Shown: piece after piece, positions 1,786 through 64,000 of the stretch
How positions within the stretch are numbered: position 1 is the stretch's first letter
Layout of the letters: each line of letters begins with the position of its first letter
Assembly: GCA_030264375.1 (NCBI GenBank)
Contig: JASCQW010000032.1
Location: 30,241,016-30,305,015, forward strand
Length of the DNA: 64,000 nt
Direction: 5' to 3'
Source: Carcharhinus longimanus
Taxonomy: Eukaryota
Made by a program: the position numbers and the translations under genes
The notes under the pieces: model-generated
What the model was told of the DNA's origin: nothing
What the model saw: only the letters and a program-made list of their open reading frames with translations
Databases searched by the model: none

Positions 1786-2105
1786 ATCATAGAATCATAT
1801 AGTACAGAAGGAGGTCATTCGGCCCATTAACTCTGCACCAACAACAATCCCACCCAGGCCCTACCTCTATAACCCCATATATTTACCTTAGCTAGTCCCT
1901 TTGACACTAAGCGGAAATTTAACATGGCCAATCCACCTACCCTGCACATCCTTGGACGCTGGGAGGAAAACAGAGCACCCAGAGGAAACCCATGCAGACA
2001 TGGGGAGAACATGCAGATTCCACACAGGCAGTGACCCAACTGAGAATCAAACCCGGTCCCTGGCGCTGTGAGGCAGCAGTGCTAACCACTTGCCACCGTG
2101 CCGCC
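1786..2105 (-). mobile_element. HE1-type tRNA-derived (V-domain) SINE, full length
   Basis: Reverse complement begins GGCGGCACGGTGGCAAGTGGTTAGCACTGCTGCCTCACAGCGCCAGGGACC (A-box/B-box head) and ends in a CR1-like tail with TATGATTC repeats. Confidence 0.93.
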
Positions 2106-12534: not shown

Positions 12535-12830
12535 CTGCAGACTGATCACATGGAGTGAATTGAAATCTGTGGGGACTTCCAGATGTCTCATCCAGTCGGC
12601 ACTTCCGGCTGAAGATTGCTGCAAACTCTTCAGCCTTGCGCTGAAGTACTGGGCTCCCCCCATCATTGAGGATGGGGATATTCATGGAGCTTCCTCCTCC
12701 AGTGAGTTGTTAAATTGTCCACCACCGTTCACAGCTGGATGTGGCAGGACTGCAGAACTTAGATCTCATCCATTGGTTGTGGATTGTGGAATTGCTTAGT
12801 TCTGTCCATTACTTTGTGTTTGCCACATAA
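12535..12830 (-). mobile_element. CR1/L2-group LINE internal fragment (probably the family at 51165-54870)
   Basis: NIPILNDGG..KAEEFAAIFSRKC matches the EN-RT linker motif KAExFAxxFS. Confidence 0.75.
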
Positions 12831-16639: not shown

Positions 16640-17030
16640 AATACTATCCACTTCAAAGCAACTAGCTTATCTGGCACCCATCCACCACCTGAAACATTCA
16701 CCTGTTCCATCACTGATGCACACTGGCAGCCGTTTGTACCATCTACAGAGAACACTGCAGCAACTCACCAGGACTCCTTGGACAGTGCCTTCAAAACTTA
16801 CAGTCTTTACCCCTAGAGGCCAAAGATAGCAGGCACACGGAAACACAATCTGTTTTGATACTATATCATTGCCCTTTCATTGTTGCTGGGTCAAAATCCT
16901 GGAGCTCCCTACCTAACACACAGTGGGTGTACCGACACCACCTGGAGTGCAGCAGATCAAGATGGCCACTCACCACCACCTTCTCCTGAGTAATAAATGC
17001 TAGTCTTGCCAACAATGCTCACATCCCATG
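16640..17030 (+). mobile_element. CR1/L2-group LINE 3' end
   Basis: GGGTCAAAATCCTGGAGCTCCCTACC (KSWxSLP) ..CACCACCACCTTCTC..AATAAATGCT..CACATCCCATG tail, shared with other copies in this window. Confidence 0.85.
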
Positions 17031-35169: not shown

Positions 35170-36615
35170 AGGATATCACTGCTCAGGCTAGTATTTATAC
35201 CCATCCCTAACTGCCCTTCAGAATGTGGTGTGGAACTGTCTTCTTGAACAGCTGCAGTCCATGTACACCCACAGTTAGGGAGGGATTTTGTCCCAACATC
35301 AGAGAAGAATGGTAATATTGGGGGTGATTCTCCCAGTAGTGCTGAATTGGTGAGAAAACTATGACGGTTTCTTCAGTGCAATTTCAGACATGGATCTCCC
35401 CATGAATCTCCTCATGAACATGGGAGTGCAGTTTCAGACATTTCAGTGCAATGCCTGAAATTGCACTGAAAAAAGTCAGTTTTTTCTGCGCAATGCAGAG
35501 GCCACAATTTTGAATCTCATTAAAAACCTGTGAGGCGGGGCCTATTCACGCTGGAGTCTGGCAGTTCCGGAACTCTGTGCATGCACAGTGGCCCCAATCT
35601 GTTAGTCCCCCTGTTTGCTGGCCATTTCAAATGCTGGCTAGCCCGGGACCCCCACAGTATACTCCTCCAGCCTCCTCCCACTCTCCACCCCCACGCCAAT
35701 TCCCAGGCCAGCCCCCATCGCACAGGCTGGTACTGCCAGGTGCCTATGCCCACAGGCACCACCACCCCATTACCTGATCCCCTTCGGGGCTCTGATTGCC
35801 TCCCTTCACTCCAGCAGGGTCTCCTGATAGTTCCCCAAATGTGGGGAACTACTCTAAACCCTGCTGGAATGAAATACTCTTGATGGGTTGGGAGGTGTGG
35901 CAAGTTCTGTGCTGAGCCCAATAATGACATTTAAAATACATTTAAAACCACTTATCTCTCTTCCTGCCAGTTTCCAGCACGGTCCCGACTGTGCCTTTCC
36001 CTGGCTCTGAGAGACCGGGAATCCTGCGAAATAGCCAACACACGATTTTCCGGACCAGATCTGCCAGAATTGCACCCATTGTCCCATGTCAGGAATGTTT
36101 GTGACTTGAAGGGGAACTTGCTGTTGATAGTGATCCCATGTATCTGCTGCCCTTTCCCTTCTGTGTGGTAGGATTTGAAGGTTTTTTTGATGGAGCCTTG
36201 GTGAGTTGCTACAGCACATCTTGCAGATGGTACACACTGCTGCTACTTCATCCAGTGGTGGAAAGAGTGGATGTTGGACGTAGTGAATGGAGCGCCAACC
36301 AAGCAGGTTGCATTGCCCTGGATGCTGTTGAGCTTTTTGATTGTTGGAGCTGCACTCATGCAAGGAATTGGAGACTATTCCATCACACTCCTGACTTATG
36401 CCTTGTAGATGGTAGATAAGATTTGGGAAGTCAGGAGATGAGTTACTGTCCTCAGAGTTCCCAGCCTCTGACGTGCTTATGTCACCACTGTATTTATATG
36501 GTGAGTTCAGTTCAGCTTCTGGTCAATGGTTCCCACAGATAGTGGGGGTTTCAGCAATGGCAATGCCATTGAATGTCATGGGGGAGATGGTTGGAATCTC
36601 TCTTGTTGGAGAATT
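35170..36615 (-). mobile_element. CR1/L2-group LINE 3' portion, interrupted by a MITE
   Basis: Tail CCCATCCCTAACTGCCCTT, C-terminal AAVCTICKMCCSNSPR (ORF 35854-36363); contiguous across the insertion. Confidence 0.85.
35320..36077. mobile_element. Non-autonomous Harbinger/PHIS-like DNA element, 3-bp TSD ATT
   Basis: Ends GGGGGTGATTCT / AGAATTGCACCC with ATT at 35317-35319 and 36078-36080; subterminal inverted repeat. Confidence 0.75.
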
Positions 36616-39071
36616 GTACATACCATAGCCATCATATAATTTAAGAAGAAGATGGATACTGAGTTCAATGTCAGAATACTAATGTGAACACCTCTGTTTT
36701 GAATGATGTCAAACTTCTTGAATATTGCAGTTTTACAGAATCAAATGATTGCACAGGTATTCCATCATACTTCAACCTTTCAGAGGTGGGTAAGCTATTG
36801 AGTAGTCAGGATGTGAGTCACTCATCACTGGGTACTGCTCTGTTTTTGTAGTAATAGGGTTAATAGGACTGATTTAGTTAATGAACAGACAGAAAATCCC
36901 TACTGACATTGGAAATTTTTATTAATTTTGTGGCAGGTATGATAATAGATAAGAAAGTGGCAAGAACTGTATTATACACAGCAAATGAGAAGGTGCATGT
37001 ATTTTAAGTGGAGATTTCTAGCTCCAAATTACATTGAGGATGATTTTGTGGTCCTGATGTTGTGGCACCTCATATAACTTGTCATTCCATTCCACATTTA
37101 TTGCTCAATCATATGAAACCCTCACAGCTCTTTCACTACACTTCATTCATATGCACCTTCAGCAGTGCACATTAAAACTGCAATTTACAATTGAATGTAT
37201 TATCACTCAGATTTTTCAAGAACAATTGTACCATGAATGCATCGACTTACTGGCACTTAGGATTACTTACAGATTGGGCATGTGGCAGACATCAGTACCA
37301 TGTTTTAGATGATATAGCAGATAAGGACATTGAATACTTTAATCTGTTTTTCCACCCTGAACAGCATGGCAATGTGCTGATTGCTGAATCAGTCACTAGA
37401 TACCCAGTGAGCTGTATATTGGCTGGTATTGCAGTGATAGAAATGAGTTACTGGCAGAAAGGTTCTGTGCAGCAGTGACCTTGCTACCCACAGGTGCTGT
37501 CATTTCTGTGTTGGCTACTGTTGTCCTTGCTGAACAAATTCCTGCTGACCATTGCCAACTTGGGACTTGATTCATGATAAGTGGGAATATTGTGGCTTGC
37601 AGAAATGATTGGATCTTTTCTCCCTGGCATGCTTACTTTCATGTCCTCTAATATACCAAATTGGAAATGCCTTCAAAACTTACTTTACGGAGTGGAATAA
37701 ACATTGGGTTAAAATAATTTTAAATGACAAAATATGCAATAAAGTGTGCTTAAAATAGAACTTAAAAGGCAAAGTGAACGTTAAAAAAATGGAATGCCTG
37801 TCCCATTTGAAGAGTGTTTTTACCCACGTCACACATCACTTGCTTGCATTCCAAATGGACCCATTAGGTAAAATGTGGAGACAGAGAACAACTCCTGTAG
37901 AATTGTCATCCATACTTGTTTCAATATCTTTGTATGAAATCTGGTTGTCTAAGGCCAGCAAAGGGCACAAGGGAGGTTAATCTTAATTAAAGTGATGCTG
38001 TAAGTGAAATCAAATTAACAGCTCATTATACAAAAGGCCAAATTATCACACTCTGTGTATCCTTTGATGGTTACACACCATGCCTAATTTTCTTGATGAC
38101 CTCAATGGAAAGGAAAATTGAGTGAGGTATAATCACCTAAAGGCAAAATTATCCCTACCAATCTAATGCACAAATACAGCTGACCACATAATTAATACTT
38201 AGTTGAAACTTACTGCAGGACCTGTATTCTCAATCTTGTAATTATCCATGCATCACTGTCCAAAGTGAACAAAGACCACATATAATCTAATTGACCTTTT
38301 TGTTTCAATGCCCACTACTCTTACATTCAGAGGCAAAATAAACACCTTAGTAACAGTGCACATTATGGAACAGATGATTAGAAACAATTTGCTGCATCTC
38401 AGAGGAAAATAGTTACGTTATTCAGAAAGAGGGACTTGAGGTATAAGGACTGCAGTAATTTGTCTATCATATGTCATCATAAAAAGGAGATGCTTGTCAG
38501 CAGTGATGTATATGGGGTTTTGCTGGGTAACCAATTGGTTTCATTAGCAGTCTTTTTAATGCACTTTTTTGGATATTACACCTGTGTCCCTGTATCTTAT
38601 ACACAAAATACATAAGCGACTGATGTAGCACAATGTTTCAGGTGAGCAGTGGTCAGCCTCCAATACTACATTGATATTGAAGAATGGTATGGTTAATTTA
38701 TATGAATGATTGTTTGCATGACAGTCTCCACTGAGGATGTGACAACTCCTCTGTTATGATCTGGTTACTAGTAGAACATCTCCCACTACTGCTATGAAGC
38801 TATGTGGTCCAAAAGATGGAATCATGTTGGTTTGTACAGGGCTAGACGATGGCAGCTTAATATTACTTGGCCAACAGTTAAGAGCAACAGCAAGGTTGGG
38901 ATTTTGTCACTTCATAAATATCCTTTTTTCTGCCATAGCCCAAACTGCATGCAATGAGACAATACTCTCCAGCAATGGTGTACAGGGTATTTGCAAAAAC
39001 AGATAGTTGGTTTTGTATCAGTAACATGATGCTGTGTGTCATCATACTGCACAAGTATAAGCAAGTAAAAA

Positions 39072-39283
39072 TCCTTTTGGTTCACTAATGTCCTTTAAGG
39101 AAGGAAATCTGCCATTGTCACTTGGTCTGGCCAACATGTGACTCCAGAGCCATAGCAAATGTTGTTGACTCTCAACTGCCCTCTGAAATGGCTGAGAAAG
39201 TCACTCAGTTGAAGGGAAATTAGGGATGGGCAATAAATTCTGGCCAGCCAGTTACACCCCTGTCCTATGAATGAATAAAAAAA
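39072..39283 (+). mobile_element. 5'-truncated SINE / bipartite non-autonomous retroelement (MetaSINE-like body plus LINE tail)
   Basis: GGTTCACTAATGTCCTTTAAGGAAGGAAATCTGCC..GTCACTCAGTT joined directly to the LINE tail AGGGAAATTAGGGATGGGCAATAAA..(GAAT)2 and A-run. Confidence 0.8.
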
Positions 39284-41049: not shown

Positions 41050-41370
41050 ATTCACAACCTCTACCATCTGGAGGACAAAGGAAGCTGGTGCAAGGGACAC
41101 CAGCTCCATGCTTCCCACTGCCGACACACCCCCCCCCCCCCCCCCCCCCCCCCCCAAGTCACACAAAATCCTAACTTGAAACTATATCCACTTACTGTTC
41201 CTTCATTGTTTCTGTGTTAAAATCCTGGAACTCCATCCCCTAACAGCGGTGTGGTAGTACATACATCACATGAACTGTAATGGTTTAGAAAAGGGACTCT
41301 TCACTGTCTTCTCAGGGGCAACTACAGATGGACAATAAATGCTGAACTTACCAGTGATACCCAAATTCTG
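41050..41370 (+). mobile_element. CR1/L2-group LINE 3' end with an internal 27-nt poly-C
   Basis: AAAATCCTGGAACTCC..CTTCTCAGGGGCAAC..CAATAAATGCTG tail; C-run at 41129-41155. Confidence 0.8.
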
Positions 41371-47782: not shown

Positions 47783-48884
47783 ATCTCCTCTCATTTGAAA
47801 TGCTAAGTCTAAATTCCTGAGTTGAATTATAACAGATGTAGGATCAAGTCATTTTTATTTTGGGTGTTAGTGTAAAATGGGAGATTTTGGTTCAGCTGTC
47901 TGCTATCTGGTCTCACTCGTCATAAATTTGTGTGTAACCAGAAGGATGGTTGATAGCTTCCATTTTGTACCATTATCCAAAGTCCAAATTACCACCCCAC
48001 CGTGCAACCTCTACCCAGTTTCAGACATTACTTTTCCTACAGATCATGTCACTTTGAGTAATTTCTCATGAAATAAGCTCTATGGTAACAAGCAAACATA
48101 TAATCAACTTAAAATAATATTATTCCAAGCCAGTGAAAAGGTCAAATCACTGGGTGACGACTATTGAAGCTCTCCCGAGACAGTAAGATTGTATATCACA
48201 GCACGTACATGAAGAGATGAGCCAGAGTACACATACTTCCACAAGCTGTAGAATTATTTAGAGTAACTTGCATAATTCTTTGACATTGAAATATTAACCA
48301 AAAAAGGTTCCTTTAAAAATAGTTTAAATTTTCTTGAATAGTCATAATGATCTTATTTTGGAACAAATACTTTAAGAGGGAAAAATTTTAATGGTGAAAA
48401 GAGCAGAAGTCATCTGTATTCCACAGGGGAATATTTAACTGATTAGTACAGATTAATGTGATAATGTTACACATCTGATAAGGAATATCCAGGGTTATCA
48501 AAATTTTAATTTAGCACCTGTCTTAAAGAGACTTACATAGATGTTGTTATAAAACTAGTTTACACTTAATCCTAGTTAATTATGGAGGCACAAGTAGGAT
48601 ATTTGAAGGAATATCACATGCTAATGCAGTATTATAGCCAAAAACCAAAAACATTTTAGAGGTAAAATTTCCATAACTTATCCCCTAAAATTATATTCTG
48701 TGGTCATGAAATTGGATCTGTGAATTGAAAGCTATGGTTTATATTCTTGATAAATCACAGTCTTTCTGAGGAAATGGCTCATTTATGAATAAGTTTATGA
48801 ATAAGATCTTGAAATTATACCAAGACATTGGACAGGGGAATATTTGGGAGTACTTTACATTAGGTATGAGGAGACAACATAAAG

Positions 48885-50265
48885 ATGGGAAATTACAGGC
48901 CAGTTCCAGGAAATTACAGGCCAGTAAGTTTGACGTTGGTGGTTGGTAAGTTATTGGAAGATGTGATAAGGGATAGGATCTACAAATATTTGGATAGACA
49001 GGGACTTATTAGGGAGAGTCAACATGGCTTTGTGCGTGNNNNNNNNNNNNNNNNNNNNNNNNNNNNNNNNNNNNNNNNNNNNNNNNNNNNNNNNNNNNNN
49101 NNNNNNNNNNNNNNNNNNNNNNNNNNNNNNNNNNNNNNNNNNNNNNNNNNNNNNNNNNNNNNNNNNNNNNNNNNNNNNNNNNNNNNNNNNNNNNNNNNNN
49201 NNNNNNNNNNNNNNNNNNNNNNNNNNNNNNNNNNNNNNNNNNNNNNNNNNNNNNNNNNNNNNNNNNNNNNNNNNNNNNNNNNNNNNNNNNNNNNNNNNNN
49301 NNNNNNNNNNNNNNNNNNNNNNNNNNNNNNNNNNNNNNNNNNNNNNNNNNNNNNNNNNNNNNNNNNNNNNNNNNNNNNNNNNNNNNNNNNNNNNNNNNNN
49401 NNNNNNNNNNNNNNNNNNNNNNNNNNNNNNNNNNNNNNNNNNNNNNNNNNNNNNNNNNNNNNNNNNNNNNNNNNNNNNNNNNNNNNNNNNNNNNNNNNNN
49501 NNNNNNNNNNNNNNNNNNNNNNNNNNNNNNNNNNNNNNNNNNNNNNNNNNNNNNNNNNNNNNNNNNNNNNNNNNNNNNNNNNNNNNNNNNNNNNNNNNNN
49601 NNNNNNNNNNNNNNNNNNNNNNNNNNNNNNNNNNNNNNNNNNNNNNNNNNNNNNNNNNNNNNNNNNNNNNNNNNNNNNNNNNNNNNNNNNNNNNNNNNNN
49701 NNNNNNNNNNNNNNNNNNNNNNNNNNNNNNNNNNNNNNNNNNNNNNNNNNNNNNNNNNNNNNNNNNNNNNNNNNNNNNNNNNNNNNNNNNNNNNNNNNNN
49801 NNNNNNNNNNNNNNNNNNNNNNNNNNNNNNNNNNNNNNNNNNNNNNNNNNNNNNNNNNNNNNNNNNNNNNNNNNNNNNNNNNNNNNNNNNNNNNNNNNNN
49901 NNNNNNNNNNNNNNNNNNNNNNNNNNNNNNNNNNNNNNNNNNNNNNNNNNNNNNNNNNNNNNNNNNNNNNNNNNNNNNNNNNNNNNNNNNNNNNNNNNNN
50001 NNNNNNNNNNNNNNNNNNNNNNNNNNNNNNGGGGGCTTCTTCATCCAGAGAGTGGTGGGAGTGTGGAATGAGCTGCTGGATAAAGTGTTAAATGCGGGAT
50101 CACTTTTAACATTTAAGAAAAACTTGGACAGGTTCATGGATGAGGGGTGTGGAGGGATATGGTTCAAGTGCAGGTCAGTGGGACGAGGCAAAAAATGGTT
50201 TAGCACAGACAAGAAGGGCCAAAAGGCCTGTTTCTGAGCTGTAATTTTCTATGGTTCTATGTTTT
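48885..50265 (+). mobile_element. 5'-truncated CR1, mostly hidden in a 992-nt gap
   Basis: PGNYRPVSLTLVVGKLLE..ESQHGFVR before the gap; FFIQRVVGVWNEL and (TTCTATG)n tail after it. Confidence 0.92.
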
Positions 50266-51257
50266 TCTAAAAGGCTGTTCACTGGGACCAGGGCTGCAAG
50301 GAGCAGTAGATTCTGCTGGTGAAGGTGGTAGTGTTTATATGTTTTGACTTCATGTATGAACCTTTTTGATACTTCCATAAGAAATAAAAGAAATTGAGAG
50401 AGCACAGGGCCTTTAAATTTACAGCCATAATCAAATTCCTGCTCATGGCACAACCCACTAGCTGCATGATGTCCTAGCCTAGATGCCCAATTGGGCACAA
50501 CACTCCTCCCTCCCTTCACACTTAATTGGCCATCTTCCCACCAGTCCGATGGTACTCAATTGACTGAGCTGAGATGAGATGGCAGGGGTGAGAGCAAGCA
50601 AACCATTCACTTTTTATTCTACCTCCCTTTCGCCTCCAAAAATGGAAAATCTAGCCCCATAGTGTGTCTGGGGAAGTACCCATCCCAGTTTGTGGCCTAA
50701 TTGTTTTCTTATTCATATTTTGACAGATTTAGAAAGATAAATGAGAGGAAAACTAAAAAATGAATATAAATGTTGGATGATAGTAATCAAGAGGTAAAAT
50801 CTTAGATTTAAGGGGAAAATAAAGGGGATTCCTTTTTAAATTAAATCAGAATCTACTGCTTTTGAGGGGAATACCTTGATAAAATTTCAGGATCTTATTC
50901 ATAAACTTCATGTGATTGAGAAATGTGCAATTTCTGAGGCAACTATATGGTATACCAAAGATACATGCCATTGTCTTCATATCACAGATTTAATTTTTTA
51001 ACTTATTTTTTCCAGAATATTTTCAGGGAATAATTTATGAAAACTTTACTGCCTAAAATATTCTCAGCATTAATACTAATATAATGTAAACAATATTCTT
51101 GCAAACATCTGACTCATGTCAGATCTGACTTGGCTTTCATCAACATTTTGAAATTCTTTTTTATTTGGTCTAGGAATGGTGGCAAGGCCAACATTTAATG
51201 CCCATTCTTAATTACTCTTGAGAAGAAACAGCTGCAGTCCATCTGTTATAGGTGCTG

Positions 51258-52120
51258 TGGGCTGGTGATCCATGTGACAATTGTTACAAAATTATTGATA
51301 TCTTTCATGAGTATGGATAAAATCTCAAAATGTGGAAAACCAAGTTTAAGCCTAGTTGGATTCTGCTATTTGCAAACTGCGGAGCTGGAACAGACAATTT
51401 TCATGCAGCCAAGTCTTGGACAATCAACTTCCCATCGAAACCAGACAGTCTGGAACTGCCTGGCCAGATGCTAACAGCCACATTGTTTCAGAAGTAACTG
51501 TTGTTTACGCCTCCAGTGAACTTGCTTTGTAAGAAGAATGCTACACAGACTTGGTGGCACCCACCTCAGTAGGAGGTCAGAGGCATAGCGTGACAAGGAC
51601 AGCACTTGACAGTTGAAGGTTCAGAATTACGTTCTACAACCTCCAAATATGGAAAGTAGTCACCTCATTGGACTTTCCTGCCCTCGCCCAATGCTAGTAT
51701 AGCACTCAGCCTTTGGAATCTTTGAGGGGCATGGAGCTCCAGCTCTCTCTGTTTTTGCACCTTCTCCAACCTGTCTCTCCAGAGAGCTTTTTTGCCTAAC
51801 AGCCAAGCAGCATACCATCTTCAGCTCCTTGTGCCTCATGGCTATAATCATCAGACTGATCAGATCCCAAAGACCACCCTGGTGAGACGATCCGAAGGCC
51901 AGAACCAGCCCTAGATAAGAGGAGAAGCCCAAATTGATGACTGCAGATTCTGAAACATCAGCCAATCCTCAAAAACTGAAGAACAGCTTGTCCCAACCTT
52001 ATTGAATAGGTATTAACAGTCTTTTCAGACAAACAGTTCAAATAGGGACCTATGGATAGGATTTCTGCAAACTGGTCGTGGTTAGTTAGGGTACATTTAC
52101 CCACCTTTCACTTTACAACA
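51258..52120. mobile_element. Possible solo LTR in the LINE 3' end
   Basis: TG..ACAACA ends with GCTG on both sides; LINE sequence resumes after 52120; internal CCAAT/TATA-like and pyrimidine tract. Confidence 0.45.
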
Positions 52121-52322
52121 GCTGGTAGTCAAGGAGTTGCAAGATTTTGCCCCAGAAACAATGAAAGAATGGTGGTGTATTTCTAAGTCAAGATAATGTG
52201 TGACTTGGAAGAAAACTTGCAGGTGATGGTATTCCCAGGTGCTAGCTGCCCCTTTTTGTAGGTGGTAGAAGTTGTGGTTTGGTAGGCATTCTCTGAGAAG
52301 TCTTCGTAAGTGGATATAGTGC

Positions 52323-52682
52323 ATAGAGTCTTAGAGGTTTACAGCATGGAAACAGTCCTTTCAGCTCAACTTGTCCATGCTATGCAGTTTTAGCACTAAG
52401 CCAGTCCCAATTGCCAACATTTAGCCCACATCCCTCTATTCTCATCTTATCCATGTGACTGTCTAAATGCATTGTACCTGCCTCTACTGCAGTCTTTGAC
52501 AGCTCGTTCCAGACACTCACCACCCTTTGAGTGAAAATATTCCACCTCTGGACCCTTTTGTATCTCTCCACTCTTACCTTAAACCTATGCTGTCTAGTTT
52601 TAGACTCCCCTACCTTTGGGAAAAGATATTGACCACCTACCTTATCTATGTCCCTCATTATTTTATAGACTGCTATAAGAGG
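52323..52682 (-). mobile_element. CR1 3' end nested in the LINE
   Basis: LIAVYKIMRDIDKV..LFPKVGESKTRQHRFKVR..FTQRVVSVWNEL. Confidence 0.9.
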
Positions 52683-53585
52683 TCTATCTTGTAGATAGTG
52701 CACACTGCTGCCATTGTGTGCCCGTTGTGGAAAGAATGAATGTTTAGAATTGTGGTTGGGGTCAATCAAGTGGGTTGTTTTGTCCTAAGTGATTTTAACA
52801 TTAAGTTTTATTTGAATTGTACTCATCCAAACAAGCAGACTATCCCATCATACCTGATTTGTGCGCCTTAAATGGTGGGAAGACTTTGGAATGTCAGGAA
52901 GTGAATTACTCATCACACAGTAGCCCATTTCTGACTGCTCTTATAGCCACTTAATTTATATGGCTGGTCCAGTTAAGTTTCTAATCAATGGTGACTCCCA
53001 GAATATTGAGGGTGGAAGATTTAGTAATAGTATTCCCATTGAATGTCGAGGAGAATAAATTGGACACTCACTGGTCATTATCTGGCTTTTGTATTGCTTG
53101 AATATTACTTGCCTCTTATCAGCTCAAGCCTGAATGCATGGACTTGCTTCATTATCTGAGGAGTTGTGAATAGAACTGAAAACGTGCAATCATTAGGGAA
53201 CCAACTTTGAGCTTATGATGGAAGAAGGATCATTGATGTGGCAGTTGATGATGGTTGAACGTAGGACATCGTTCTGAGGAGCTCCTGCAGTGATATCCTG
53301 GGGCTGATAAAATTGGCCACCAGCAACCACAACTGCATTTTTTTGTGCTAGGTATGACTCCATCCAGTGGCGAGTTTTCCTTCTAATTCCCATTGACTTC
53401 AATTTTGCGAATGCTCTTTGATAGTACACTCAGTCAAAAGCTGCATCTACTGTTTAGCATGTATGTAGCCCTTGCAATTTTACCAAGTTGGCACTGCATT
53501 TTTACATATATCTGGTGCTACTTCTGACATGCCCTACACTTTTCATTTAGCTTAGGTTTATCCCCTACTTTGACATTAATTATAG

Positions 53586-53843
53586 AGTGTGGCTAAAAGT
53601 AGTGGGCGAATAGAAGATTGGGAGAGGTTTAAAAATCAACAAAGAGTGACGAAGAAGTTGATAAANNNNNNNNNNNNNNNNNNNNNNNNNNNNNNNNNNN
53701 NNNNNNNNNNNNNNNNNNNNNNNNNNNNNNNNNNNNNNNNNNNNNNNNNNNNNNNNNNNNNNNNNCATGATCTTATTGAATGGCGAGGCAGGCTTGAGGG
53801 GCTAGATGGCCTACTCCTGCTCCTATTTCTTATGTTCTTATGA
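53586..53843 (+). mobile_element. Young CR1 collapsed across a gap
   Basis: AKSSGRIEDWERFKNQQRVTKKLI (EN-RT linker) then a 3' UTR nearly identical to 34575-34650. Confidence 0.88.
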
Positions 53844-54873
53844 GAGATATGACAACCGATTCTGATTGAATATAATTCTTTTGCTGTTGATGGCCCATAA
53901 ATCACTGTGAATGGCCAATGTTGAGCTGCTGGATCTATCCTGAAATTATCTCATTTATCATACTGTTGGTACCACACAACACATTTGAAGGAGTCCTCAG
54001 TGTGCAAATGGGACTTTGTCCCCAAAGGGACTAACTATGTAGTCAATGGTCACTTCTATCAATACTGTAATGGACAGGTACATTGGTAATAGGTAGGTTG
54101 CTGAAGATGAGGTCAAGTAGGATTTTCCTTCATGTTTTTTCACCACCTACCTGTCTGACTGTGATCTTCTAGCTGAGTCAGTAGTGATGTTACCAAGCCA
54201 CACTCACTGATGGGCACTGAAGATCTCACTCAGAGTATGTTCAATAATCTTTCTACCCTCGGTGTTTCTTCCAAATGGTGTTCCAACATGACAGAGCACT
54301 GATCTGACAGGTGAGGGAGGTGTGAATCAGGTGAAGGTTTCTTTGCCCATTTTTGATTTGACATCATGAGAGTTCATGGAATCTGAAGTCAATGTTAAGG
54401 ATTCAAAGGACTACTACCTTCTGAGTGTATACCATTGTTCTGCCACCTCCAATGGGTCTGTCCTGCTTGAGGACATAACCAGGAATGTTGATGGATGGGT
54501 TTGAGTTTCTATCAATTTTGGCACGTCCCCAGATGTTAGTAAAGAGCAGAGTCAAATAGGCGGTAATGACAGAAGGTCTGTTTGGTTTTATTCCTCATGG
54601 ACTGCTTCATAGTGATTTAGATACAGCTAAGTGGCTTGCGATTGCTAGGCAGTTAAGAATCAGCCCTTTGCTGTGCGTTTGGAGTGAAGTGTAGGCCTGG
54701 CTGGGTAAGAATGGCAGATTTCCTTCGCTAAAGGACATCAATGAATCAGATGGGTTTTACGATAATCCAATAGTTCCATGGTCACCACGACAAATACTAT
54801 TTTTTTAAATTCCGGAATGATCTGATCAACTAAATTTAAATTTCCCTGCTGTTGTGGTTGGCTTTGAGCTTCT

Positions 54874-56170
54874 AGGCAGAATTTTAGCTTGCAAGGGGGA
54901 GGGTTGCTGATGTGTTGAGGGGGTGGGGCGGGGAGGGTGGTTAAACCATTAAAAAAAGCTGGCATATCAGAATTCTGACATGACCTCACTCACTTTGGCA
55001 TTTAACTGGTCCACGATTGGAGGAATTTGGCAAATCTTTGTGAGGATGGCAGGTCTGTAAGACAATCAAAAGTCCATTTAAACCTGGATTCTGGCATCAA
55101 TTGCCAGTGTGCAAGTTCTCTCCATGGTACGAAACTCGCAGAATCAGCATGACAAGAGCACAGCAGGGGCTGATAGTTCTGTGAAGTTCATAGACTGGAT
55201 AGTCTTGAAACACTGACCCAGGACAACTGTTATCTTGACTAGATGAAAGACCTTTACTCACTGGATTTGTTGTGAGAGTGTACTTTTGCTGCTATGGAGG
55301 TCATTTTTATGACTTAAGATCATTTCTAACAATTTAAGCTATATTTTTCACCTTGAGCGGCACTTCACTGTTGTCAGCCTTCACTGAAGCACGGGAACAG
55401 CTTATGTAGCTCTACCTTGGACCTCTGATGAGGAGCAAGAGGTGCAGCACTAACAATATCAGAAGCAGCATCAGCATTTTCCTTTTCCTAAGACAGCTGC
55501 TGCTCCAAAGGTCAGAAGGATGGGCAGAGAGCCCCAGCATGAAGGAGAGGATACCCCCAGCACAATGTTCATAGGCAAGGGCCTGCAGAAAAGTAGTGGT
55601 CAGTAGTCCATTGTACATGACAGCACTGCAGAGAGAAATTGAATTGAAGGGATGGGGGAGCAGCAGGAAGAGCAGAATAAGGAGCCTGGTGTGGTCAGGG
55701 TGCATATCGTGACTCTAGTCATCTAGCTGCTAGAGAAGCCTGTGGTTGACTGGTCCGGGCATGGTTATAACCTGAATGTGGAAAGCTAAAACTGAATCCA
55801 CCCACCCCTCCTTTCCACCCGCACCACAAATCATTCCCAGAATCAATACTCCTTCTATCTCATTGACTTAATTTACTTACCTTCCACTTCAGACCATGCT
55901 ATTCTCCTTAAGGCTGATGTCCATTTGGCATGCCAGGGGCAAATGAAGACGAATGGGCAATGGAGGCATGAAATAAATGCTTCATTAACTTTTTGCAATA
56001 CATTAACACAGTGACATTTCTATAAACATCCAAGTGAATTGCCTTGTGGAGCTGATAGAAAAGGAAGAGGAAAGACTATTACTTCTACATAAAGTGAACT
56101 CTTTGGCTTCAGCAGAGCTGGAGGCAGGTTGTTGTTTCCCTGCTGTGACAGCTGAGTTGCCACTGGCAGA
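54874..56170 (+). mobile_element. Internally deleted Harbinger-like transposon remnant
   Basis: Left end AGGCAGAATTTT; RYPQHNVHRQ joined to VVVSSPLYMTALQREIEL, resembling Harbinger transposase N- and C-terminal segments; right end not defined. Confidence 0.45.
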
Positions 56171-56199
56171 TATGGGCTGGGTTTTAGGTCCCTGAGGAT

Positions 56200-56460
56200 C
56201 CTGTGAATGATTGCCCCACTTGTTTCTACCTTTACTTCTTTCAACAATGTAGGATGCATTCCATTTCCAGCAGGTGATTTGCCTATTTTCACTAATGCCA
56301 GTCTTTTTAGTTTGTCTCCTCTATCTTAATATTCTGACCAAACTTTTCTCTCTTCTAGTGTAACCTTTACATCGTCTGAAATCAAATGCAAACTACTCAC
56401 TTGATATTTAGTTATGTCCGCTGCATCTATATGATGATTTTGCTCTTCCTCATAGACCCA
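56200..56460 (-). mobile_element. CR1 fragment
   Basis: KIGKSPAGNGMHPTLLKEV matches CR1 KSPGPDGxHPRxLKE. Confidence 0.7.
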
Positions 56461-56473
56461 GGTTTTTTCCCTG

Positions 56474-56552
56474 AGCCTGGGTGGGATTATGGTTGGTGCA
56501 GACTCAATTTGTCATGCTCTTTCTGCAGTGTAGGGTTCTATGATTGTATGAC
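56474..56552 (+). mobile_element. HE1 3' fragment
   Basis: GCCTGGGTGGGATT..GGTGCAGACTC..TAGGGTTCTATGATT. Confidence 0.7.
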
Positions 56553-58164
56553 ATTCCTTCTGCAGATGATTAATCTTTTCAGTACAGCAAATGCACATCT
56601 GCTCAGTCACAACCGTGCATGAATCTAGATTCTGGACAGCTGACTGTAGAGAAGCCAGAAGTGGGGCCTGCCAAAGCATGTTGTTTCCTGAGCCCGGAGT
56701 TTGAAGTTGCCTCATGCTTGTTTTCTGGAGACAGAAACCTATGGAGTCTGAAGCTGCTTATTGCCTGCCAGTATCTTGCCTAGAGCCTGAAGCTCCTTTT
56801 CTGTGCTTAATTTGTGGATTGATTGCTGCTTTAATCACAGTTGTATTTTAAGAGTTCATTGTAGTTGCATGTTAACATCAGTCATAATCTGTGATAGCCA
56901 CCAGCACAATTGGTAAGAAGATTGCTTGCAATTTGTCATGCTATACATGAGTCAAGTGTGGATTGATTGGTGCTCTAATCACAGAAATGATTCTTGGCTT
57001 CCTAATAGTTGCACTACTGTGATTCAGGCTCCAGGCATGGAACAGGGAAGACGAGCAGCAAGCAGTTTCAGGAAGTGTTGGCTTTAACCTGCAGGAAAGT
57101 AATGGCAAGTGAGGCAACAGGCCCCAGGCTCAGCAAAACAAAATGCCTTTGCAGGCCCCAATTCTGGTTTCCACTCCAGAATATAGATATATGCGTGGGC
57201 ATGACCAATTGAAAGTGCATGCACAGAGGGATTGATGTACCTTGGAAGTAATCACATTGCTCAGATATTGGAAGCTCTTGACTTCAGAACTGTCAAAATA
57301 GAAAATAGAAATCAACCTCATTCACCAATCTTGCACACCATGAGATGTTGGGCTGGCAAACACAATCCTCTGTCTGTTGAGTCAGAATGCAAATCTGATA
57401 ATGCATTCTTAAAAAGATTTTGATAGTGTATTTTCAGATTGTAGCAATTTTTTGTAAAAAGAATGACCTGCTTAGAGATTAATTAAGCCACTAATGAGGT
57501 TCATAACCAACTATGAATCTATTAGTTTATGTTTTAAGAAGAAAAAAGGAACCCATGAATTTTATGCAAAGCCTCTTGATTTTTGAGAGTTTGGCCATGC
57601 AAAAGAAGTCCCCAGCTGAAATAATTTCAGCCACCTCCAGCATAGCTTGTGCAGCACATTCTGACTGACAGGGTGCTGGTGAGGTGTGCCATAATCTGTG
57701 CTGGAAGCACACAAAGTGAGCAGATTATGACATCAAACAGCCACTAAAATCAAGTATTGGATCAAGCCCAAGATGATGTGCAATATATTATCTTGTCAGC
57801 TTGGATCTTGTTTGTCTGTCTTGTAGGGACCATGAATTGGATTCAATTTAAATTTGAATTTGGTTTTTGGAGCAGGCAGGGAGATAGATTTGGGTCTGCC
57901 TGGTCCACTCTGAGCTTTGGCTTTGTGATTTTAAGAATGGGGTAAAAATATAAAAATAAAACTAATTGAAGCACCATCTGCTATTCTGGACTATGTAATT
58001 ATGCCATTTCTTTACCTGAACATGTGTTCAGCTGCCAAAGCCCACTCCATCAGCTTTATTTAAAGGGTCAACTTCCAAGTTAGGTGCTTTTATATACTTT
58101 TGCTGGTGCAGAGTTAATGGAAGTGCAGAGTTGATTGTCAGAGGAGATTTTCAAAAGATCATAC

Positions 58165-58790
58165 CATAAAACCATAGACGGCCTATCAAGTCTGCTCTGT
58201 CATTTAATGAGATTATGACTGATCTGATATTCTAATTGTCCACTCCACTTTTCCTCCTAATCCCCATAGTCCTTGATCCCCTTTCTCAAAAATTTGTCTG
58301 TTTTAGCCTTGAACCATACTTAAATACCCAGTCTCTGTAGCCGTCTGTGGTGAAGAATTCCACAGATTGACTACCCTTTGAGACAAGAAATTCTTCTTCA
58401 TCTCTGTTTAAATGGGTAACCCCATATTTTAAGATTGAGCCTTTGGCCCTAGACTCCCACAAGAGGAAACAATCTCTAAGCATCAACCTGCCTACCCTCC
58501 TCAGAATCCTATATGTCTCAATAAGGACAACTCTCATTCTTCTAAACTTCATTAAGTATAGCAAAACCTATTTAACCTCTATAAGAAAATGCCTCCTACA
58601 CCATGGGCTGTTTTCTTATGAAGTAAACTTTTATGCAGTATCTTATTGAATGCTTTTTGGAAATTCTAGTGTATTATACCTACTGGCTCCCCTTTATCTA
58701 TCCTGCTCATTATCACCTCAAAAAATTCTAATAAGTTTGTCAGGCATGATTTTGCCTTCATGAAGCCATAATGACACTGTTTGATTATTT
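58165..58790 (-). mobile_element. CR1 RT remnant plus 3' end
   Basis: RRMRVVLIETYRILR and HGFMKAKSCLTNLLEFFEV..DKGEPV. Confidence 0.85.
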
Positions 58791-58794
58791 GGGG

Positions 58795-59170
58795 ACTTTC
58801 AGGAGAGTAGTTCTGGACTTTGACAAGGAAGACAAGGGATTTGCTTGCCTGTCAAGAGAAAGTCTGCTTCAGTAACAGGAGCCATGGTTTTCTTCTCTCT
58901 TGGGCTGTAGCATGATTTAAAAATGGAGCAGAGAGGGGTAGCTGTGCACATGAGAAGGTGGAAGGAAAGGACATCCAAGACCTTTCCCCTCCAGACATGT
59001 TGTCCATGTGTGGATACTGAAATGGGTGCTTCCCTAAGATGATATTCCCGTGCCCAGTGACTTGCTACATGCAGAACCCTCTCCAGTACATGCAGTCCCA
59101 GTAATTGAACTGTTGGCTGTGAGTGTCAGCTCAAGAGATGATGCTTCTTCATCAGAGATCAGATGTTGCT
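58795..59170 (+). mobile_element. Possible Harbinger transposase C-terminal remnant
   Basis: EDKGF (cf. GDKGY), KMIFPC (cf. KMRFRC) and LQY occur in the expected order but across frameshifts. Confidence 0.35.
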
Positions 59171-59229
59171 CTCATCCTTCCTTATGTAATAGTTGTTCAA
59201 GTGACTGAACCAAAAATATGTAACTCCCC

Positions 59230-59792
59230 ACAGCACTGTGGACGTAGGCTCTAGCAGTTCAACTTTCTTAAAGGCAATTAAGGATGAGCAACAAATGCTG
59301 GCCTTACAGAATGGGTGGGGTGGTGGAGCAGAGAGCTTCATGATCACACTATGCTGCTTGTACTTCATGCCGGATTGCAGATGAAAAGAATTGAAGAATA
59401 TGAATGTTTAAAGATGGTGTTTGGGGTATTAGTTGTGGGAGCTGCTTTGTCCTGGATGGTGTTTGTCTTGGAGTTTTGGGCTTTTGTCTCAATTGTTTCT
59501 ATGCTTTGGAAGCTGGCATCTGAATTATCCACTACAGAATACCTGCTTACCTGCTCTTGTAGTCATCATATTAGTTAAATTTCTGTGTAATACTGACCGC
59601 CAGGATGTTAATGGTGGGAATTTGAGTGGTGGTAATATCATTGATTATTAAAGAGATGTAGTTAGACTCTCTTGTTGGTCATTACTTGGCAGCTGTGTGG
59701 CATGTATGTTATTTACAATGATCAGAATGAATGACGGAGCAGGCTTGAAGGGCCAAATGGCCTACTCTTGCTTCTTGTTTCTTTGTTTCTAT
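59230..59792. mobile_element. Mixed LINE remnants (CR1/L2-group tail +, body -, CR1 tail +)
   Basis: AAGGCAATTAAGGATGAGCAACAAATGCTGGCC tail; body similar to 36220-36610; GGCCTACTCTTGCTTC CR1 tail. Confidence 0.65.
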
Positions 59793-60614
59793 TAGTCCAA
59801 TCTTGAAATATTAAATAATGGTAGATTATTGTAGAAGTTGCAGAAACAGCAAGTGATAAGCAGGTTTCACTGTTTTAGGTTGTAAACATTCACGGTCAGA
59901 TTTTCATTTTCAATCTGAATTCAAAAATTTTCTTGAAATAAAATAAGCTCTAGTTTGTTGAAACCTAAAGTTTGTGAGACTAGGAGGGATGCCTGTACGA
60001 TCTGTTGTCTGCATACATGACTTGTCAAATGTTTTGTTGGATGACCAACTCTGGTCTGAAATCTTAGTTTTTTTAAGACAGTTCCCATTTCCAGGAAATT
60101 CCTTGATCATTTCCATGGCATGATTTATCTCCCTTTGTGAAGAAAATTAAGAAGTTCAATATTGCTGAAGAAAGATGTTGAATATATGTAGCTTCTAATG
60201 TGGTAAATGGATTTCAATGTCAATGCTATGCCAGGTAAAAAGGACATATATCTGAAAATGACTGGTGGATTCTATCAAACAGCATGTCATTTTGGCTGTT
60301 CACAATAGTCAATATATTGACTGTACTCAACCGGCCTATGCTTGTAAAACTCAGAACCTAAAGTGGAGGAGTTCCTTTTCCTCTCAAATTCATATGACAA
60401 GTGCATGGAGTCTTGCTGTGAGCAAAAGCCCACTAGCTTCGAAAACCTCAGTTGAAATACTATTGAGGCTACTATTTGATTGCGTGTTAGCAGCTCTCAC
60501 ATTGATGGTGGTTTACCCATGGATTCTACCACAGGATACTGGGAGATAGCATGGAGAGTATCAGCTGCCATTGTGGATTCATGGTTGAGAAGTTGCTAAG
60601 AATGTTCATTCCAA

Positions 60615-60790
60615 TGTTGACAGATGGCCTTTTAAGAGCATCTCTTTCAGAAGATGTCCACTCTGTCAGTGCAACAGTTCCTCAGTACTGCACTGGGAAT
60701 GTCAGCCTCATTATGTACTCAAGTCTCTGGAGTAGGATTTAAACCCAAATCTCTGACTCAGAGGCAAGAGTCCTATCATTGAGCCATGAC
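60615..60790 (-). mobile_element. DeuSINE-like SINE 5' half
   Basis: CCTCAGTACTGCACTGGGAATGTCAGCC..CAAGTCTCTGGAGTAGGATTTAAACCC..CTGACTCAGAGGCAAG. Confidence 0.75.
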
Positions 60791-60809
60791 AAATAGGCCT
60801 AAGAGCTGC

Positions 60810-61272
60810 ACCTAAGGAGTGTAATGCAAATTTATCAGAATATTACCAAAGTTCTAAGGGTTAAAATAAATATGAGGAAAGGTTATATAAAGTAGGATTG
60901 TATTTGGTGGAATATGGAAAGTTAAGGGATGATTTTATTAAGATTTTAGGACTTTGAAAATAATTGATAGGGTAGAGAAAGAATAACATTTTTGCTGGTA
61001 GGGGAGTCTATGCTTCTTGCATAACCTTAAAATCAGAGCCAGGCCAACTAGGAGAGAAATTAAAGAAATACTTCTTCATATTAAGTGTTGTAGAAATAAG
61101 GAACTCTTCCCCGCCCCCACCTGACAAAACAGTAATTTGAGCTTAATTAATCATTTAAAATTTGATAAAATGTTTGCTAGTCAAGGGTAGATGGAATTAA
61201 GATTCAGATCAGTCTCTATCATATGGATTGAGGGAACATGGAGCAGAATGGTACATCCCAATTTCTATGCTT
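60810..61272 (+). mobile_element. Old CR1 3' end
   Basis: YEER, LRDDFIKI, DRVEK, HNLKIRARP-type residues and 3' UTR. Confidence 0.7.
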
Positions 61273-61319
61273 GCTAACAGTGTGCAGCTGCAATTACAAC
61301 TAATCTAATAGTGGCCCAG

Positions 61320-62010
61320 GCTGGCCTACAACAGTAACATCCAGGCTTTGGCTAATAAATGATGGGTAATGTATATATCAAGTAATAACCACCCTGAACT
61401 ACCCAGTCCAGTCGTCTTCCCTTAATTTCAAATAGTGCTACTACCACCAAGTTCTGCCTCCTCAGTCAACATCTGTAGAGTCACCATTAATCAGATGCTG
61501 AACTGCACCAGACAGATTAACATCATGGCTGAAAGAGCAGGACATGGATTTCATTCTGTATGATTTGTGGCTCACCTCGTGACCTCTCAAAACCTCTCCA
61601 TCATCAATAAAGTTCAAGTCAGGAGTAAGGTGATATACCACTTGCCTGGATGGATATAGCTACAATATCACTTAAGATGCTTGACATAATCCCGGACAGA
61701 GTGGTTCGGTTATTCAGTGCCTCTACCAGAAGCCTTATCCATCACTTCCATCACTGGTGCATGTCTACAGAATTAGGAATCACCAGTATGTGCTGCAGCA
61801 ACTTAGCAATGTTACTTCCGTTTAGCCGTGTCCACCACCCTCAAGAAGGATAAAGTAAGAATGCCATAATGTTTTGAGTTCCTCTCAAAGCTACACACCA
61901 TTCTGACTTGGAGGTCAATTTCCTGGAATTTCTTGCTACCATCATAAGAAGTTCCTCTCACTGCAATTAGAGATAGACAACAAATGCAACTGTGCTAGCA
62001 TTACCCAAAC
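61320..62010 (+). mobile_element. Old CR1/L2-group LINE 3' portion
   Basis: IQALANK*WV, KVQVRSK and CCSNL motifs, tail CAATTAGAGATAGACAACAAATGC. Confidence 0.7.
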
Positions 62011-62059
62011 ACTCTCTGCCTCTTAGCACAAATCAGCAACTAAGAATTAATTTATTTCG

Positions 62060-62163
62060 GCCAGTTCTAAAGAACTCGCATTCTAATTAATGTTAACCCT
62101 ATTTCTCTCTCCGCAGATACTGCCAGATCTGTTGAGTATTTTCAGCACTTTGCTTTTATCTCA
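62060..62163 (+). mobile_element. Penelope terminal repeat, hammerhead decayed
   Basis: CCAGTTCT..TGTTAAC..TTTCTCTCTCCGCAGATACTGCCAGATCTGTTGAGTATTTTCAGCA is homologous to 17833-17938. Confidence 0.7.
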
Positions 62164-64000
62164 CCATGAAACAAGTTGTACTCTGGATTGTTTCTGTACT
62201 CAAATCCTGTTTCTTTTTTTTATATGGACAGGTCATTAGCTCCACAACTCCCGACTAGGAGAAACAGTTGCGTGGAAAGTGGGGTTGCCACTCTACTCCC
62301 GTCTTTCTTTTGCCCATATTGGATGTTGACCTGACAAGGACAATGTTTTGTAACCAAAGTACCAGAAATGTTATTTTGCTTAATCCTTCAAATTCAAAGT
62401 TATTATTCTGTCACTCTTAATCACTCTTTAAAACATAAATGTTCAACAAACATATTTTTTAGTCAAATCCAATGATGACACGTCATTGGTAATTTCTCCC
62501 TGTCGATCAGTACAAAGCCCAGAACACCATCATAGCCTACAATTATCTAACAAAGTGGGATGAAAAATATCAAACCTCAAAAATCTGTAATGGATCATAT
62601 TTGTTAAAGCAACAGAGATTAATTCCTACCATGCTTTAACGACAGAATGTTCCAGAAAGCCCTTAATCTAGCTGAATAAAGTTTTTAAGCAGAAGCTGGA
62701 AAGTTGTATTAGCACATTGCCATGCTCTGGTGATTTATGATACACGAACAAGTTTGAGTGGTTCTGCAGATGGACATTATAAAACATTTTCATTACTCAC
62801 CATATGTCCTTCCAGGCATTTAAGACGGAATATTTTATTTCTAGGAACATCTGGGTTTGATTTGTATCTGGTAATTGGGAGATCCTTAGTGTGGTTCTCG
62901 CTAATAAGGCATTTGATTTCATTCTTATTTACTTTATGGATCCAAACCATTGGTGGCGAAAGGTGCAGGTGGTGATTTTTCCGAGATATCCAAAAAATTT
63001 ATAGCTCTGCTGAATGTGATTTTGCGGGTCAGTGATTACTGTTGAGAGGTCAACACCTTTATATTAGATCTAAAAAGCAATGGAGTGCAACCGTGAAGAT
63101 ATAAAACAGCTAATAAGGAGCTCAGTAGAATGTTCTAAATGGTGAAGGGGGGGCTGGTGTCAGTGAAAGGGAAATGATTTTTAAAATGCCCTTTTTAGTT
63201 TTTATCTATATCGCAGCGAATTCAATTCACTCTTTGTCATTACCAGAATGGCTACTTTAATATCGTTTCCTGTTTTTTTTATTCCTAAAACATGAGCATC
63301 TTTAATCATCTCTCCTTGCATTTAAATCAACATTATGGCCATCATTAATCATCAGAAATTGTTCAATGTGTGTCCAGACTTTTAAAATTTTTTTACTTAA
63401 ATTGTTACCAACAAAAAAGGTGCGTCAACCACATTGATTTAGAATCTAGTTAAAAATTATGATCCCAATATTCTGGTTCACTGTTAGATATGGAAACTGA
63501 GATGATGACGTTGTCAGTACAATTAGTTCTAGGACAATTCACCAGGGTATCAAGTGGCAAGTGGTCTCTCTCAATGTGCCAATTTTGTATTGTGTTCCAC
63601 CAGGGTTCAGAAGATCATTCCTGTGGGATTCATTATGTTATAATCCAAACCACAAACAGATCAAAGTCTCTCAAAAAGTAAACCAAAAAAATGTTAGCTT
63701 CCATGAAGACGTTTGAAACTTACTGAATACTCAGTTTGTTGGCAAATCTAGTGTTTAAAAATATGACCACTGTAACTCTCAGTTGTCTGACACAACAAAG
63801 CTGAAAAGATATTCCACAATAGAACAGATACTATTTATCTAACTTCAGTTGCAATTTAGCACATAATGCCCTGAAGTTGCTTGTGAGAACCTAAATCAGG
63901 ATTTAACATTGAATGGATTCAATTTGAATATCCTGACTGATTCCACACATTGGTTCTGATCAATTCAAGTATTTACTGTGTATTCGGACACGTGTATGAG

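What the first reader, a model, noticed from the sequence alone, without database searches (positions are those of the whole stretch)
51165..54870. LINE with a SINE-like (possibly tRNA/pol III) 5' region and no visible ORF1
Seen: on the minus strand, a SINE-like block (54870-54620: degenerate B-box-like GCTCAAAGCC, then ..GATTCATTGATGTCCTTTAGCGAAGGAAATCTGCC..AAGCCACTTAG) runs within ~80 nt, in the same orientation, into an endonuclease start (LFTNIWG), then RT and the 3' tail, with no SINE tail or A-run in between. Established: CR1/L2 elements normally have ORF1 and a pol II 5' UTR. Inference: this could be an autonomous SINE-LINE chimera or single-ORF LINE using a tRNA-derived leader. The A-box end is cut off by the Harbinger-like insertion at 54874, so the pol III promoter is not shown directly.
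Basis: partly seen in the sequence, partly recalled or inferred. Interest (0 to 1): 0.72.

Follow-up and report, generated by a model that had tools for sequence, protein, structure and literature searches.

The report
Shark LINE with a tRNA head
This is an old, broken copy of an abundant shark-and-ray jumping gene that encodes its own copying enzyme yet begins with the tRNA-type promoter of short non-coding repeats and lacks the T-runs that stop RNA polymerase III, so it is likely a protein-coding element made by a polymerase thought to serve only non-coding RNAs, which no experiment has yet tested.

Summary
Observation confirmed; it is a family trait, not a chance insertion. Searching the genome with linker+endonuclease DNA only, 27 of 30 loci have the SINE-shared head/body directly upstream (17 with the whole A-box/B-box head), none with a SINE tail between. 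Intact copies span 3.0-3.4 kb: tRNA-like head, body, one EN+RT ORF, A-tail. It is the published elasmobranch Zenon LINE (PMC13343379): its 7 shark/ray consensuses start with this head, which the paper does not mention. Lack of ORF1 is normal for Zenon, so that part is not new. The coding strand has 0 runs of 4+ T in 923 codons (5.1-5.5 expected, P=0.001; P=0.11 under its own codon usage); CR1, Rex1 and 65 foreign relatives all have such runs. No in-frame ATG precedes the endonuclease. The abundant SINE is this head joined to the LINE tail at several junctions. Best reading: a Pol III-transcribed autonomous LINE with non-AUG initiation (inferred, 0.65). The Harbinger insertion was not confirmed. 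The scan noted this family before on other DNA.

The parts
54847..54889 (-). Remnant of the tRNA-derived head with degenerate B box (54870-54860); A box absent in this copy
   Evidence: Local alignment to the family majority sequence from element nt 52; 54875-54889 is ambiguous
54648..54846 (-). Body shared by the LINE and its SINE derivatives
   Evidence: 79.9% over 144 nt; 3093 first-look candidates in the genome
54547..54647 (-). LINE-specific linker (about 150 nt in intact copies, shortened here); holds the inferred non-AUG start region and Arg-rich leader
53858..54546 (-). Apurinic-type endonuclease region, broken
   Evidence: relative P0016 carries PF14529/PF03372
53766..53845 (+). Later insertion: 3' tail of another repeat (CR1/HE1-type, label recalled), followed by a 100-N gap at 53666-53765
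   Evidence: family D1 (5 copies in the window)
53479..53592 (-). Inter-domain part of the ORF; about 780 nt of the element (nt 1367-2145) are missing after it
52686..53444 (-). Reverse transcriptase region, broken
   Evidence: 69% over 808 nt; a better copy hits PF00078 at E=2.4e-26
52330..52680 (-). Later insertion: 3' fragment of a CR1-type LINE
   Evidence: 6474 candidates; best other copies about 81%
52121..52324 (-). C-terminal part of the ORF
   Evidence: 70% over 207 nt
51280..52120 (.). Later insertion: unrelated dispersed repeat of about 0.84 kb
   Evidence: 370 candidates, 40 scored, 72-83% identity
51160..51225 (-). 3' tail shared with the SINE, ending in a short A-run
   Evidence: 82.5% over 40 nt

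Best explanation
This is a decayed copy of the elasmobranch Zenon LINE, a 3.3-kb single-ORF retrotransposon whose 5' end is a tRNA-derived A-box/B-box head, and which is likely transcribed end to end by RNA polymerase III and likely translated without an AUG start. Shown: the head-body-linker-ORF-tail layout in many copies, the absence of 4+ T runs on the coding strand, the absence of an in-frame ATG before the endonuclease, and a SINE made of the same head and the same tail. Inferred: Pol III binds the internal boxes and reads through because terminators were selected against; the uncapped RNA recruits ribosomes through its conserved body and starts near an in-frame GCT codon at element nt 327; the EN-RT protein binds the 3' tail for target-primed reverse transcription (established for LINEs); the SINEs arose repeatedly from the LINE by internal deletion, or swapped heads with it.
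For: 27 of 30 loci found with a SINE-free linker+EN query have the head/body directly upstream in the same orientation, 17 with the whole head, 0 with a SINE tail between; the 3 misses are one contig end and two copies that start in or just before the linker. With the window's own EN as query, 13 of 29 other loci have the body ending 80-170 nt before the query start and 3 more are rearranged. 8 of 20 long stretches hold both element ends, 4 of them spanning 3017-3364 nt. All 7 published shark/ray Zenon consensuses from 5 species begin with the head and body; the 2 hagfish and 1 coelacanth ones do not (first 400 letters of each seen). T-runs: 0 in 923 codons against 5.5 and 5.1 under two synonymous-codon nulls (P=0.001), Phe TTT:TTC 2:16, 0 in 3276 nt against 4.5 in base shuffles (P=0.008) while A, C and G runs are as expected. 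Copies carry 0.42 T4 per kb (57.8 kb) against 3.0 for CR1 and 5.7 for Rex1 copies of this genome; CR1 ORF 4 in 478 codons, Rex1 4 in 310; 65 of 65 related ORFs from metagenome contigs have 2 or more. 21 of 29 SINE copies are head+body joined straight to the LINE tail, at four or more junctions (about 290/3220, 317/3218, 296/3180, 356/3144), and LINE and SINE heads interleave on a tree (7 label changes, weak support).
Against: No transcript or polymerase data. Under the element's own codon usage the lack of T-runs is not significant (2.0 expected, P=0.11), the strand is T-poor (20.6%), the CR1 control is also mildly depleted under one null (4 against 8.3, P=0.025), and 4 of 65 foreign relatives are depleted at P<0.05 without a B box. 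The tail has two AATAAA hexamers and an A-run, which fits Pol II as well. Rfam finds no IRES or tRNA model on the window or on two better copies, ARAGORN finds nothing at default settings, and the body is not more stable than shuffles (z about -1). A conserved out-of-frame ATG at nt 349 could start translation by a frameshift instead. The majority ORF has two unresolved indels, and no intact copy was seen. No target-site duplications were evident by eye in 13 copies that hold the 3' end.
Confidence: 0.65

Rival explanations
1. The head is a real, inherited part of the LINE but the full-length RNA is made by Pol II (from the head acting as a Pol II internal promoter or from flanking read-through); the boxes are kept for the SINE or for RNA structure, and T-run avoidance has another cause such as codon bias or avoidance of U-rich processing signals.
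For: Two AATAAA hexamers and an A-tail; own-codon-usage null P=0.11; a capped RNA would be easier to translate; bipartite LINEs are held to be Pol II transcripts (PMC5786205).
Against: A and B boxes persist at the exact 5' end in copies here and in consensuses of 5 species; only T runs, not A, C or G runs, are missing; in-genome LINE controls keep T runs; a capped scanning model is poor with at least 8 upstream out-of-frame or stopped ATGs and none in frame. Pol III SINE transcripts with AATAAA can be polyadenylated (abstract starts).
Confidence: 0.27
2. The long form is a non-autonomous or chimeric passenger: a SINE head template-switched onto an ORF that cannot be translated, copied in trans by some other Zenon master with an ordinary 5' end.
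For: No in-frame ATG before EN; no intact copy found; 3' depth far exceeds linker depth in four laid runs, as for any LINE.
Against: The majority sequence keeps 349- and 574-codon open stretches with intact EN and RT motifs; no alternative 5' end appeared in 59 loci from two searches; the junction is one constant sequence across sharks and a ray, and the linker length from the GCT codon keeps the EN frame in this genome and in 4 of 5 published Zenon-1 consensuses (counted by eye).
Confidence: 0.06
3. Chance: a SINE landed next to a 5'-truncated LINE at this locus, or a deletion fused them.
For: The SINE is very abundant (3093 candidates) and this copy is full of later insertions.
Against: The same junction and linker occur in 27 of 30 loci and in published consensuses.
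Confidence: 0.01

Closest known systems
Elasmobranch Zenon LINEs (CarCar, HypSab, RhiTyp, ScyCan Zenon-1; SquAca Zenon-1 to -3; Stuart et al. 2026, PMC13343379)
   Same: Same 5' head, body and linker by eye over the first 400 letters; lengths 2886-3314 nt; no ORF1; A-tail; EN+RT. The window copy's body variants look most like the SquAca (dogfish) consensuses by eye.
   Different: Not a different element. The paper (12 passages and supplement searches seen) has 0 occurrences of 'tRNA' or 'polymerase III' in the main text and 0 of 'tRNA' in the supplement, so the head, the T-run avoidance, the missing AUG and the derived SINE are not described there.
tRNA-derived SINEs (SINE2) with LINE-derived tails, including bipartite ones such as Bov-tA (PMC5786205, parts 1-4 of 5 read)
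   Same: A-box/B-box head, body, tail shared with the partner LINE.
   Different: There the head is added to a deleted LINE and only RTE and Vingi were found to give SINE bodies; here the autonomous CR1-group LINE itself carries the head and the whole SINE body.
RTE-1_DAn and relatives (one sentence in PMC5786205)
   Same: A LINE that contains a tRNA-like sequence similar to SINE2 heads.
   Different: RTE clade; position and role of the tRNA-like part are not given in what was read; no Pol III read-through claim.
Polyadenylated Pol III SINEs such as B2, Dip, Ves (PMC8466645; search listing and abstract start only)
   Same: AATAAA near the 3' end and an A-tail on a tRNA-headed element.
   Different: Short and non-coding; they have a defined terminator, which is at most weakly seen here (9 of 40 ends).
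Dicistrovirus intergenic IRES (recalled; lead from earlier finding e1-8593713)
   Same: AUG-less start at an alanine codon with a 5-nt stretch just before it that could pair upstream (nt 270-274 with 322-326).
   Different: No Rfam IRES match; the pseudoknot was not established and competing folds exist.

Membership tests
Zenon (CR1 group), elasmobranch lineage | Single ORF with APE and RT, no ORF1 | tested here: met
   One EN+RT frame series from element nt 294 to 3229, no other sense-strand frame of 60+ codons before it; PF00078
Zenon (CR1 group), elasmobranch lineage | Poly-A tail (unique among CR1-group elements per PMC13343379) | tested here: met
   31 of 40 distinct 3' ends have 5+ A within 28 nt
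Zenon (CR1 group), elasmobranch lineage | Sequence identity to published elasmobranch Zenon consensuses | tested here: met
   12-nt body motif found in exactly the 7 shark/ray Zenon rows; first 400 letters near-identical by eye, not computed; whale-shark and Mobula protein fragments 66-72% identical
Zenon (CR1 group), elasmobranch lineage | RT phylogeny inside the Zenon clade | not tested
   No labelled reference RT set could be loaded; unnamed full-length relatives are 38-45% identical
tRNA-derived SINE head (SINE2 type) | A box and B box at the 5' end with tRNA-like spacing | tested here: met
   Both boxes in intact copies; in the window copy only a 7-of-11 B box remains
tRNA-derived SINE head (SINE2 type) | Recognisable tRNA of origin | tested here: inconclusive
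   ARAGORN default none; at a lowered threshold a fold at nt 7-94 but also two spurious ones; Rfam only a T-loop-like fragment at E=1; nt 1-110 fold z=-3.9
tRNA-derived SINE head (SINE2 type) | Transcription by RNA polymerase III | not testable with these tools
   Only indirect: T-run avoidance
MetaSINE | 66-bp Meta domain right after the tRNA head | tested here: not met
   No likeness by eye to BivaMeta-SINE1 and BivaMD-SINE1 in supplement part 1 of 4 of PMC4824008; not computed, the paper's figure 2 is not held
Dicistrovirus-type IRES | Match to curated IRES covariance model / pseudoknot before a non-AUG codon | tested here: inconclusive
   No Rfam IRES hit to E=10 on two copies; a 5-bp candidate helix abuts the in-frame GCT; no covariation test possible
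PIF/Harbinger (flank at 54874) | Terminal inverted repeats at both ends and a DDE transposase | tested here: inconclusive
   One candidate end, no mate in 48000-64000; no other genomic copy found; no Pfam hit

The most novel reading that the evidence does not exclude
An autonomous vertebrate LINE has been transcribed as a 3.3-kb protein-coding RNA by RNA polymerase III since before sharks and rays split, and is translated from a non-AUG codon by an IRES-like structure that is also the conserved body of the SINEs it spawns: a LINE that is its own SINE.
Probability: 0.35. Interest if true: 0.9.

Novelty: new variant of a known kind. Interest (0 to 1): 0.72.

Why it matters
LINEs are held to be Pol II transcripts and SINEs non-coding Pol III transcripts (PMC5786205). 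A self-sufficient, high-copy LINE under a tRNA promoter would break that division, give a natural long Pol III-made mRNA, and offer a direct test of how an uncapped RNA is translated. It also shows one origin for a SINE body, a question that paper calls enigmatic: here head, body and tail of the SINE all sit in one LINE. The family name and the lack of ORF1 are known; the promoter type and start mechanism were not found in print in my searches, which cover open-licence papers only and not Repbase or Dfam.

Tried and rejected
MetaSINE label: no likeness by eye. Harbinger insertion: not confirmed. Search for the missing A-box half further along the window: none. tRNA heads on distant relatives: no B box upstream in 65 ORFs from 80 metagenome loci, but many contigs have little upstream DNA and the nearest is only 42% identical, so this says little; low-threshold ARAGORN hits there are noise. 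Expression: no RNA holder listed; contigs of four runs guessed to be RNA, from four coded organisms, cover all 30 bins of a copy, show SINE-type joints, and one 436-nt contig bridges body, linker and EN start, but contigs cannot show strand, start or polymerase, so it is not used as evidence. First CR1 control gave only short fragments; replaced. A first anchored majority sequence inherited a gap and was replaced. L047 was entered with the wrong strand and corrected. A built-in 3' terminator: 9 of 40 ends have 4+ T within 24 nt against 11% background and 3 of 54 at an internal A-run: weak. Post-insertion conservation by region: flat, 7.5-9.3% divergence. Sequence look-up in earlier findings: nothing.
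Full report
What is in the window. On the minus strand, 54889-51160 holds one decayed element interrupted three times. In order: a head remnant with a 7-of-11 B box at 54870-54860, a body to 54648, a shortened linker, the endonuclease start at 54546, EN to 53858, an antisense repeat tail and N gap (53845-53666), an inter-domain piece, a loss of about 780 nt, RT (53444-52686), a CR1 fragment (52680-52330), the C-terminal part (52324-52121), an unrelated 0.84-kb repeat and the tail (51225-51160). There is no SINE tail between body and EN.

Is the junction a family trait? The window is G000 contig C32 of a 2.68-Gb genome. Querying with the window's EN region only gave 29 other loci; 13 have the SINE-shared body ending 80-170 nt before the query start in the same orientation and 3 more have it in rearranged form; the rest are truncated, gapped or interrupted. 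A second query, linker+EN of one copy with no SINE sequence in it, gave 30 loci including the query and at least two seen before: 17 have the whole head, 10 a partial body directly upstream, 3 no hit (one contig end, two copies that start in or just before the linker); none has a SINE tail in between. These are the best-scoring of 4791 candidates, so they favour well-kept copies. Of 20 long stretches fetched, 8 hold both ends, and 4 span 3017-3364 nt. No target-site duplication was evident by eye.

Anatomy of the family. A majority sequence from 30 copies (copies about 8% diverged at non-CpG sites) is about 3.28 kb: A box and B box in the first 90 nt, body to nt 290, a stop codon at 291, then open stretches of 349 and 574 codons with EN and RT motifs, separated by two unresolved indels, a short 3' end and an A-run (31 of 40 ends). 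A stop-free copy segment hits PF00078. There is no room for an ORF1. No ATG lies in frame before the EN motif; an out-of-frame ATG at nt 349 opens 36 codons and is kept in most copies. A relative of 983 aa has its Met about 29 residues before the same motif, about where this out-of-frame ATG lies, so a frameshift start cannot be excluded.

Identity. Protein relatives are whale-shark and Mobula fragments at 66-72% and unnamed single-ORF elements at 38-45%. Earlier scan notes pointed to PMC13343379. In it (12 passages seen) Zenon occurs in sharks, rays, coelacanth and hagfish, always lacks ORF1 and has a poly-A tail. A 12-nt body motif occurs in exactly the 7 shark/ray Zenon consensuses; each starts with the head, body and linker, while the 2 hagfish and 1 coelacanth consensuses do not (only the first 400 letters of each cell are visible). 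The main text has no occurrence of 'tRNA' or 'polymerase III', the supplement none of 'tRNA'. The window copy resembles the dogfish consensuses by eye and is 65-85% from this genome's majority sequence, so it is an old subfamily.

Pol III test. Runs of four or more T on the coding strand stop vertebrate Pol III (established knowledge, recalled). The majority sequence has none in 3276 nt, against 13, 10 and 9 runs of A, C and G. In 923 codons 5.5 and 5.1 are expected under two synonymous-codon nulls (P=0.001 each, 2000 draws); under the element's own codon usage 2.0 are expected (P=0.11), so most of the effect lies in codon choice (Phe TTT:TTC 2:16). Controls built the same way from this genome: CR1 ORF 4 runs in 478 codons (expected 6.0 or 8.3; P=0.24 or 0.025) and Rex1-like ORF 4 in 310 (expected 1.6) (family labels from recalled motifs). 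Real copies: 0.42 runs per kb against 3.0 and 5.7 (the control figures include untranslated and trailing sequence). Of 80 metagenome loci, 65 had an ORF of 400+ codons; all have 2 or more runs, 4 are depleted at P<0.05, none has a B box in the upstream DNA available. The window copy itself, decayed and with insertions, has 13 runs.

The SINE. All 29 other loci fetched with the body query are short forms; none runs into EN. In 21 the head+body abuts the LINE tail, at junctions near 290/3220, 317/3218, 296/3180 and 356/3144, the last keeping linker and coding sequence. On a tree of 22 LINE-linked and 21 SINE heads (6 unclassified rows left out) the labels interleave, 7 changes, but only 3 of 40 branches are well supported and one origin is not excluded by those. 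One SINE subfamily carries head variants seen by eye in the white-shark consensus. Repeated internal deletion of the LINE is the simplest reading; head exchange is possible. How the LINE first gained the head is not shown; its absence from hagfish and coelacanth Zenons suggests capture in the shark-ray lineage (inference).

Translation. An uncapped Pol III RNA needs cap-independent initiation (inference). Following the lead of e1-8593713 I looked for an IRES: Rfam gave none and the body is not unusually stable. An in-frame GCT at nt 327 is preceded by 5 nt that can pair with nt 270-274. By eye, the GCT stays in the EN frame here and in 4 of 5 published Zenon-1 consensuses, while the spacing upstream of it differs by one base between species, which fits a start at or just after it. 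This is suggestive only.

Literature seen. PMC5786205 parts 1-4 of 5; PMC4824008 part 2 of 6 and supplement part 1 of 4; PMC7245038 part 1 of 4; PMC5499810 abstract and outline; passages of PMC3747384, PMC5381603, PMC10294476, PMC13343379 and bioRxiv 10.1101/443036; listings. [quoted passage not shown] Repbase, Dfam, subscription journals and bioRxiv supplements were not visible and may bear on novelty.

Verdict. Real and family-wide; known family, undescribed promoter architecture; Pol III transcription 0.65, Pol II with an inherited head 0.27. New variant of a known kind, interest 0.72.

Noticed in passing
window 51280-52120: A dispersed repeat of about 0.84 kb inserted in the LINE; 40 scored matches at 72-83%; several copies have about 250-300 extra bases near one end; ends look TG...CA-like by eye, possibly a solo LTR.
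   Followed up: partly
3' ends of 40 LINE and SINE copies: About 16 of 40 by eye have a T-run of variable length (2-10) just before the A-tail, as oligo-U ends followed by polyadenylation would give; could also be tail decay.
   Followed up: partly
window 39067-39265 (+), 12581-12825 (-), 16643-16985 (+), 35186-35264 (-), 36084-36612 (-), 41149-41344 (+), 59262-59714, 61457-61912 (+): Further fragments of the same family, including a 5'-truncated SINE copy at 39067-39265 with the 317/3220 junction.
   Followed up: partly
window 55370-55480 (+): A short broken peptide that by recall resembles the C-terminal part of Harbinger-type nucleases; no Pfam hit.
   Followed up: partly
L051 and L020: SINE copies nested in the body of another family copy, in L051 inverted inside a LINE-linked head.
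   Followed up: no
element nt 295-303 of the family: A two-codon ATG-started mini-frame overlaps the stop codon at the end of the body and is present by eye in most published shark/ray consensuses.
   Followed up: no
window 48791-48829 and 50870-50908: 39-nt inverted repeat pair 2 kb apart flanking a gapped CR1 copy (I20).
   Followed up: no
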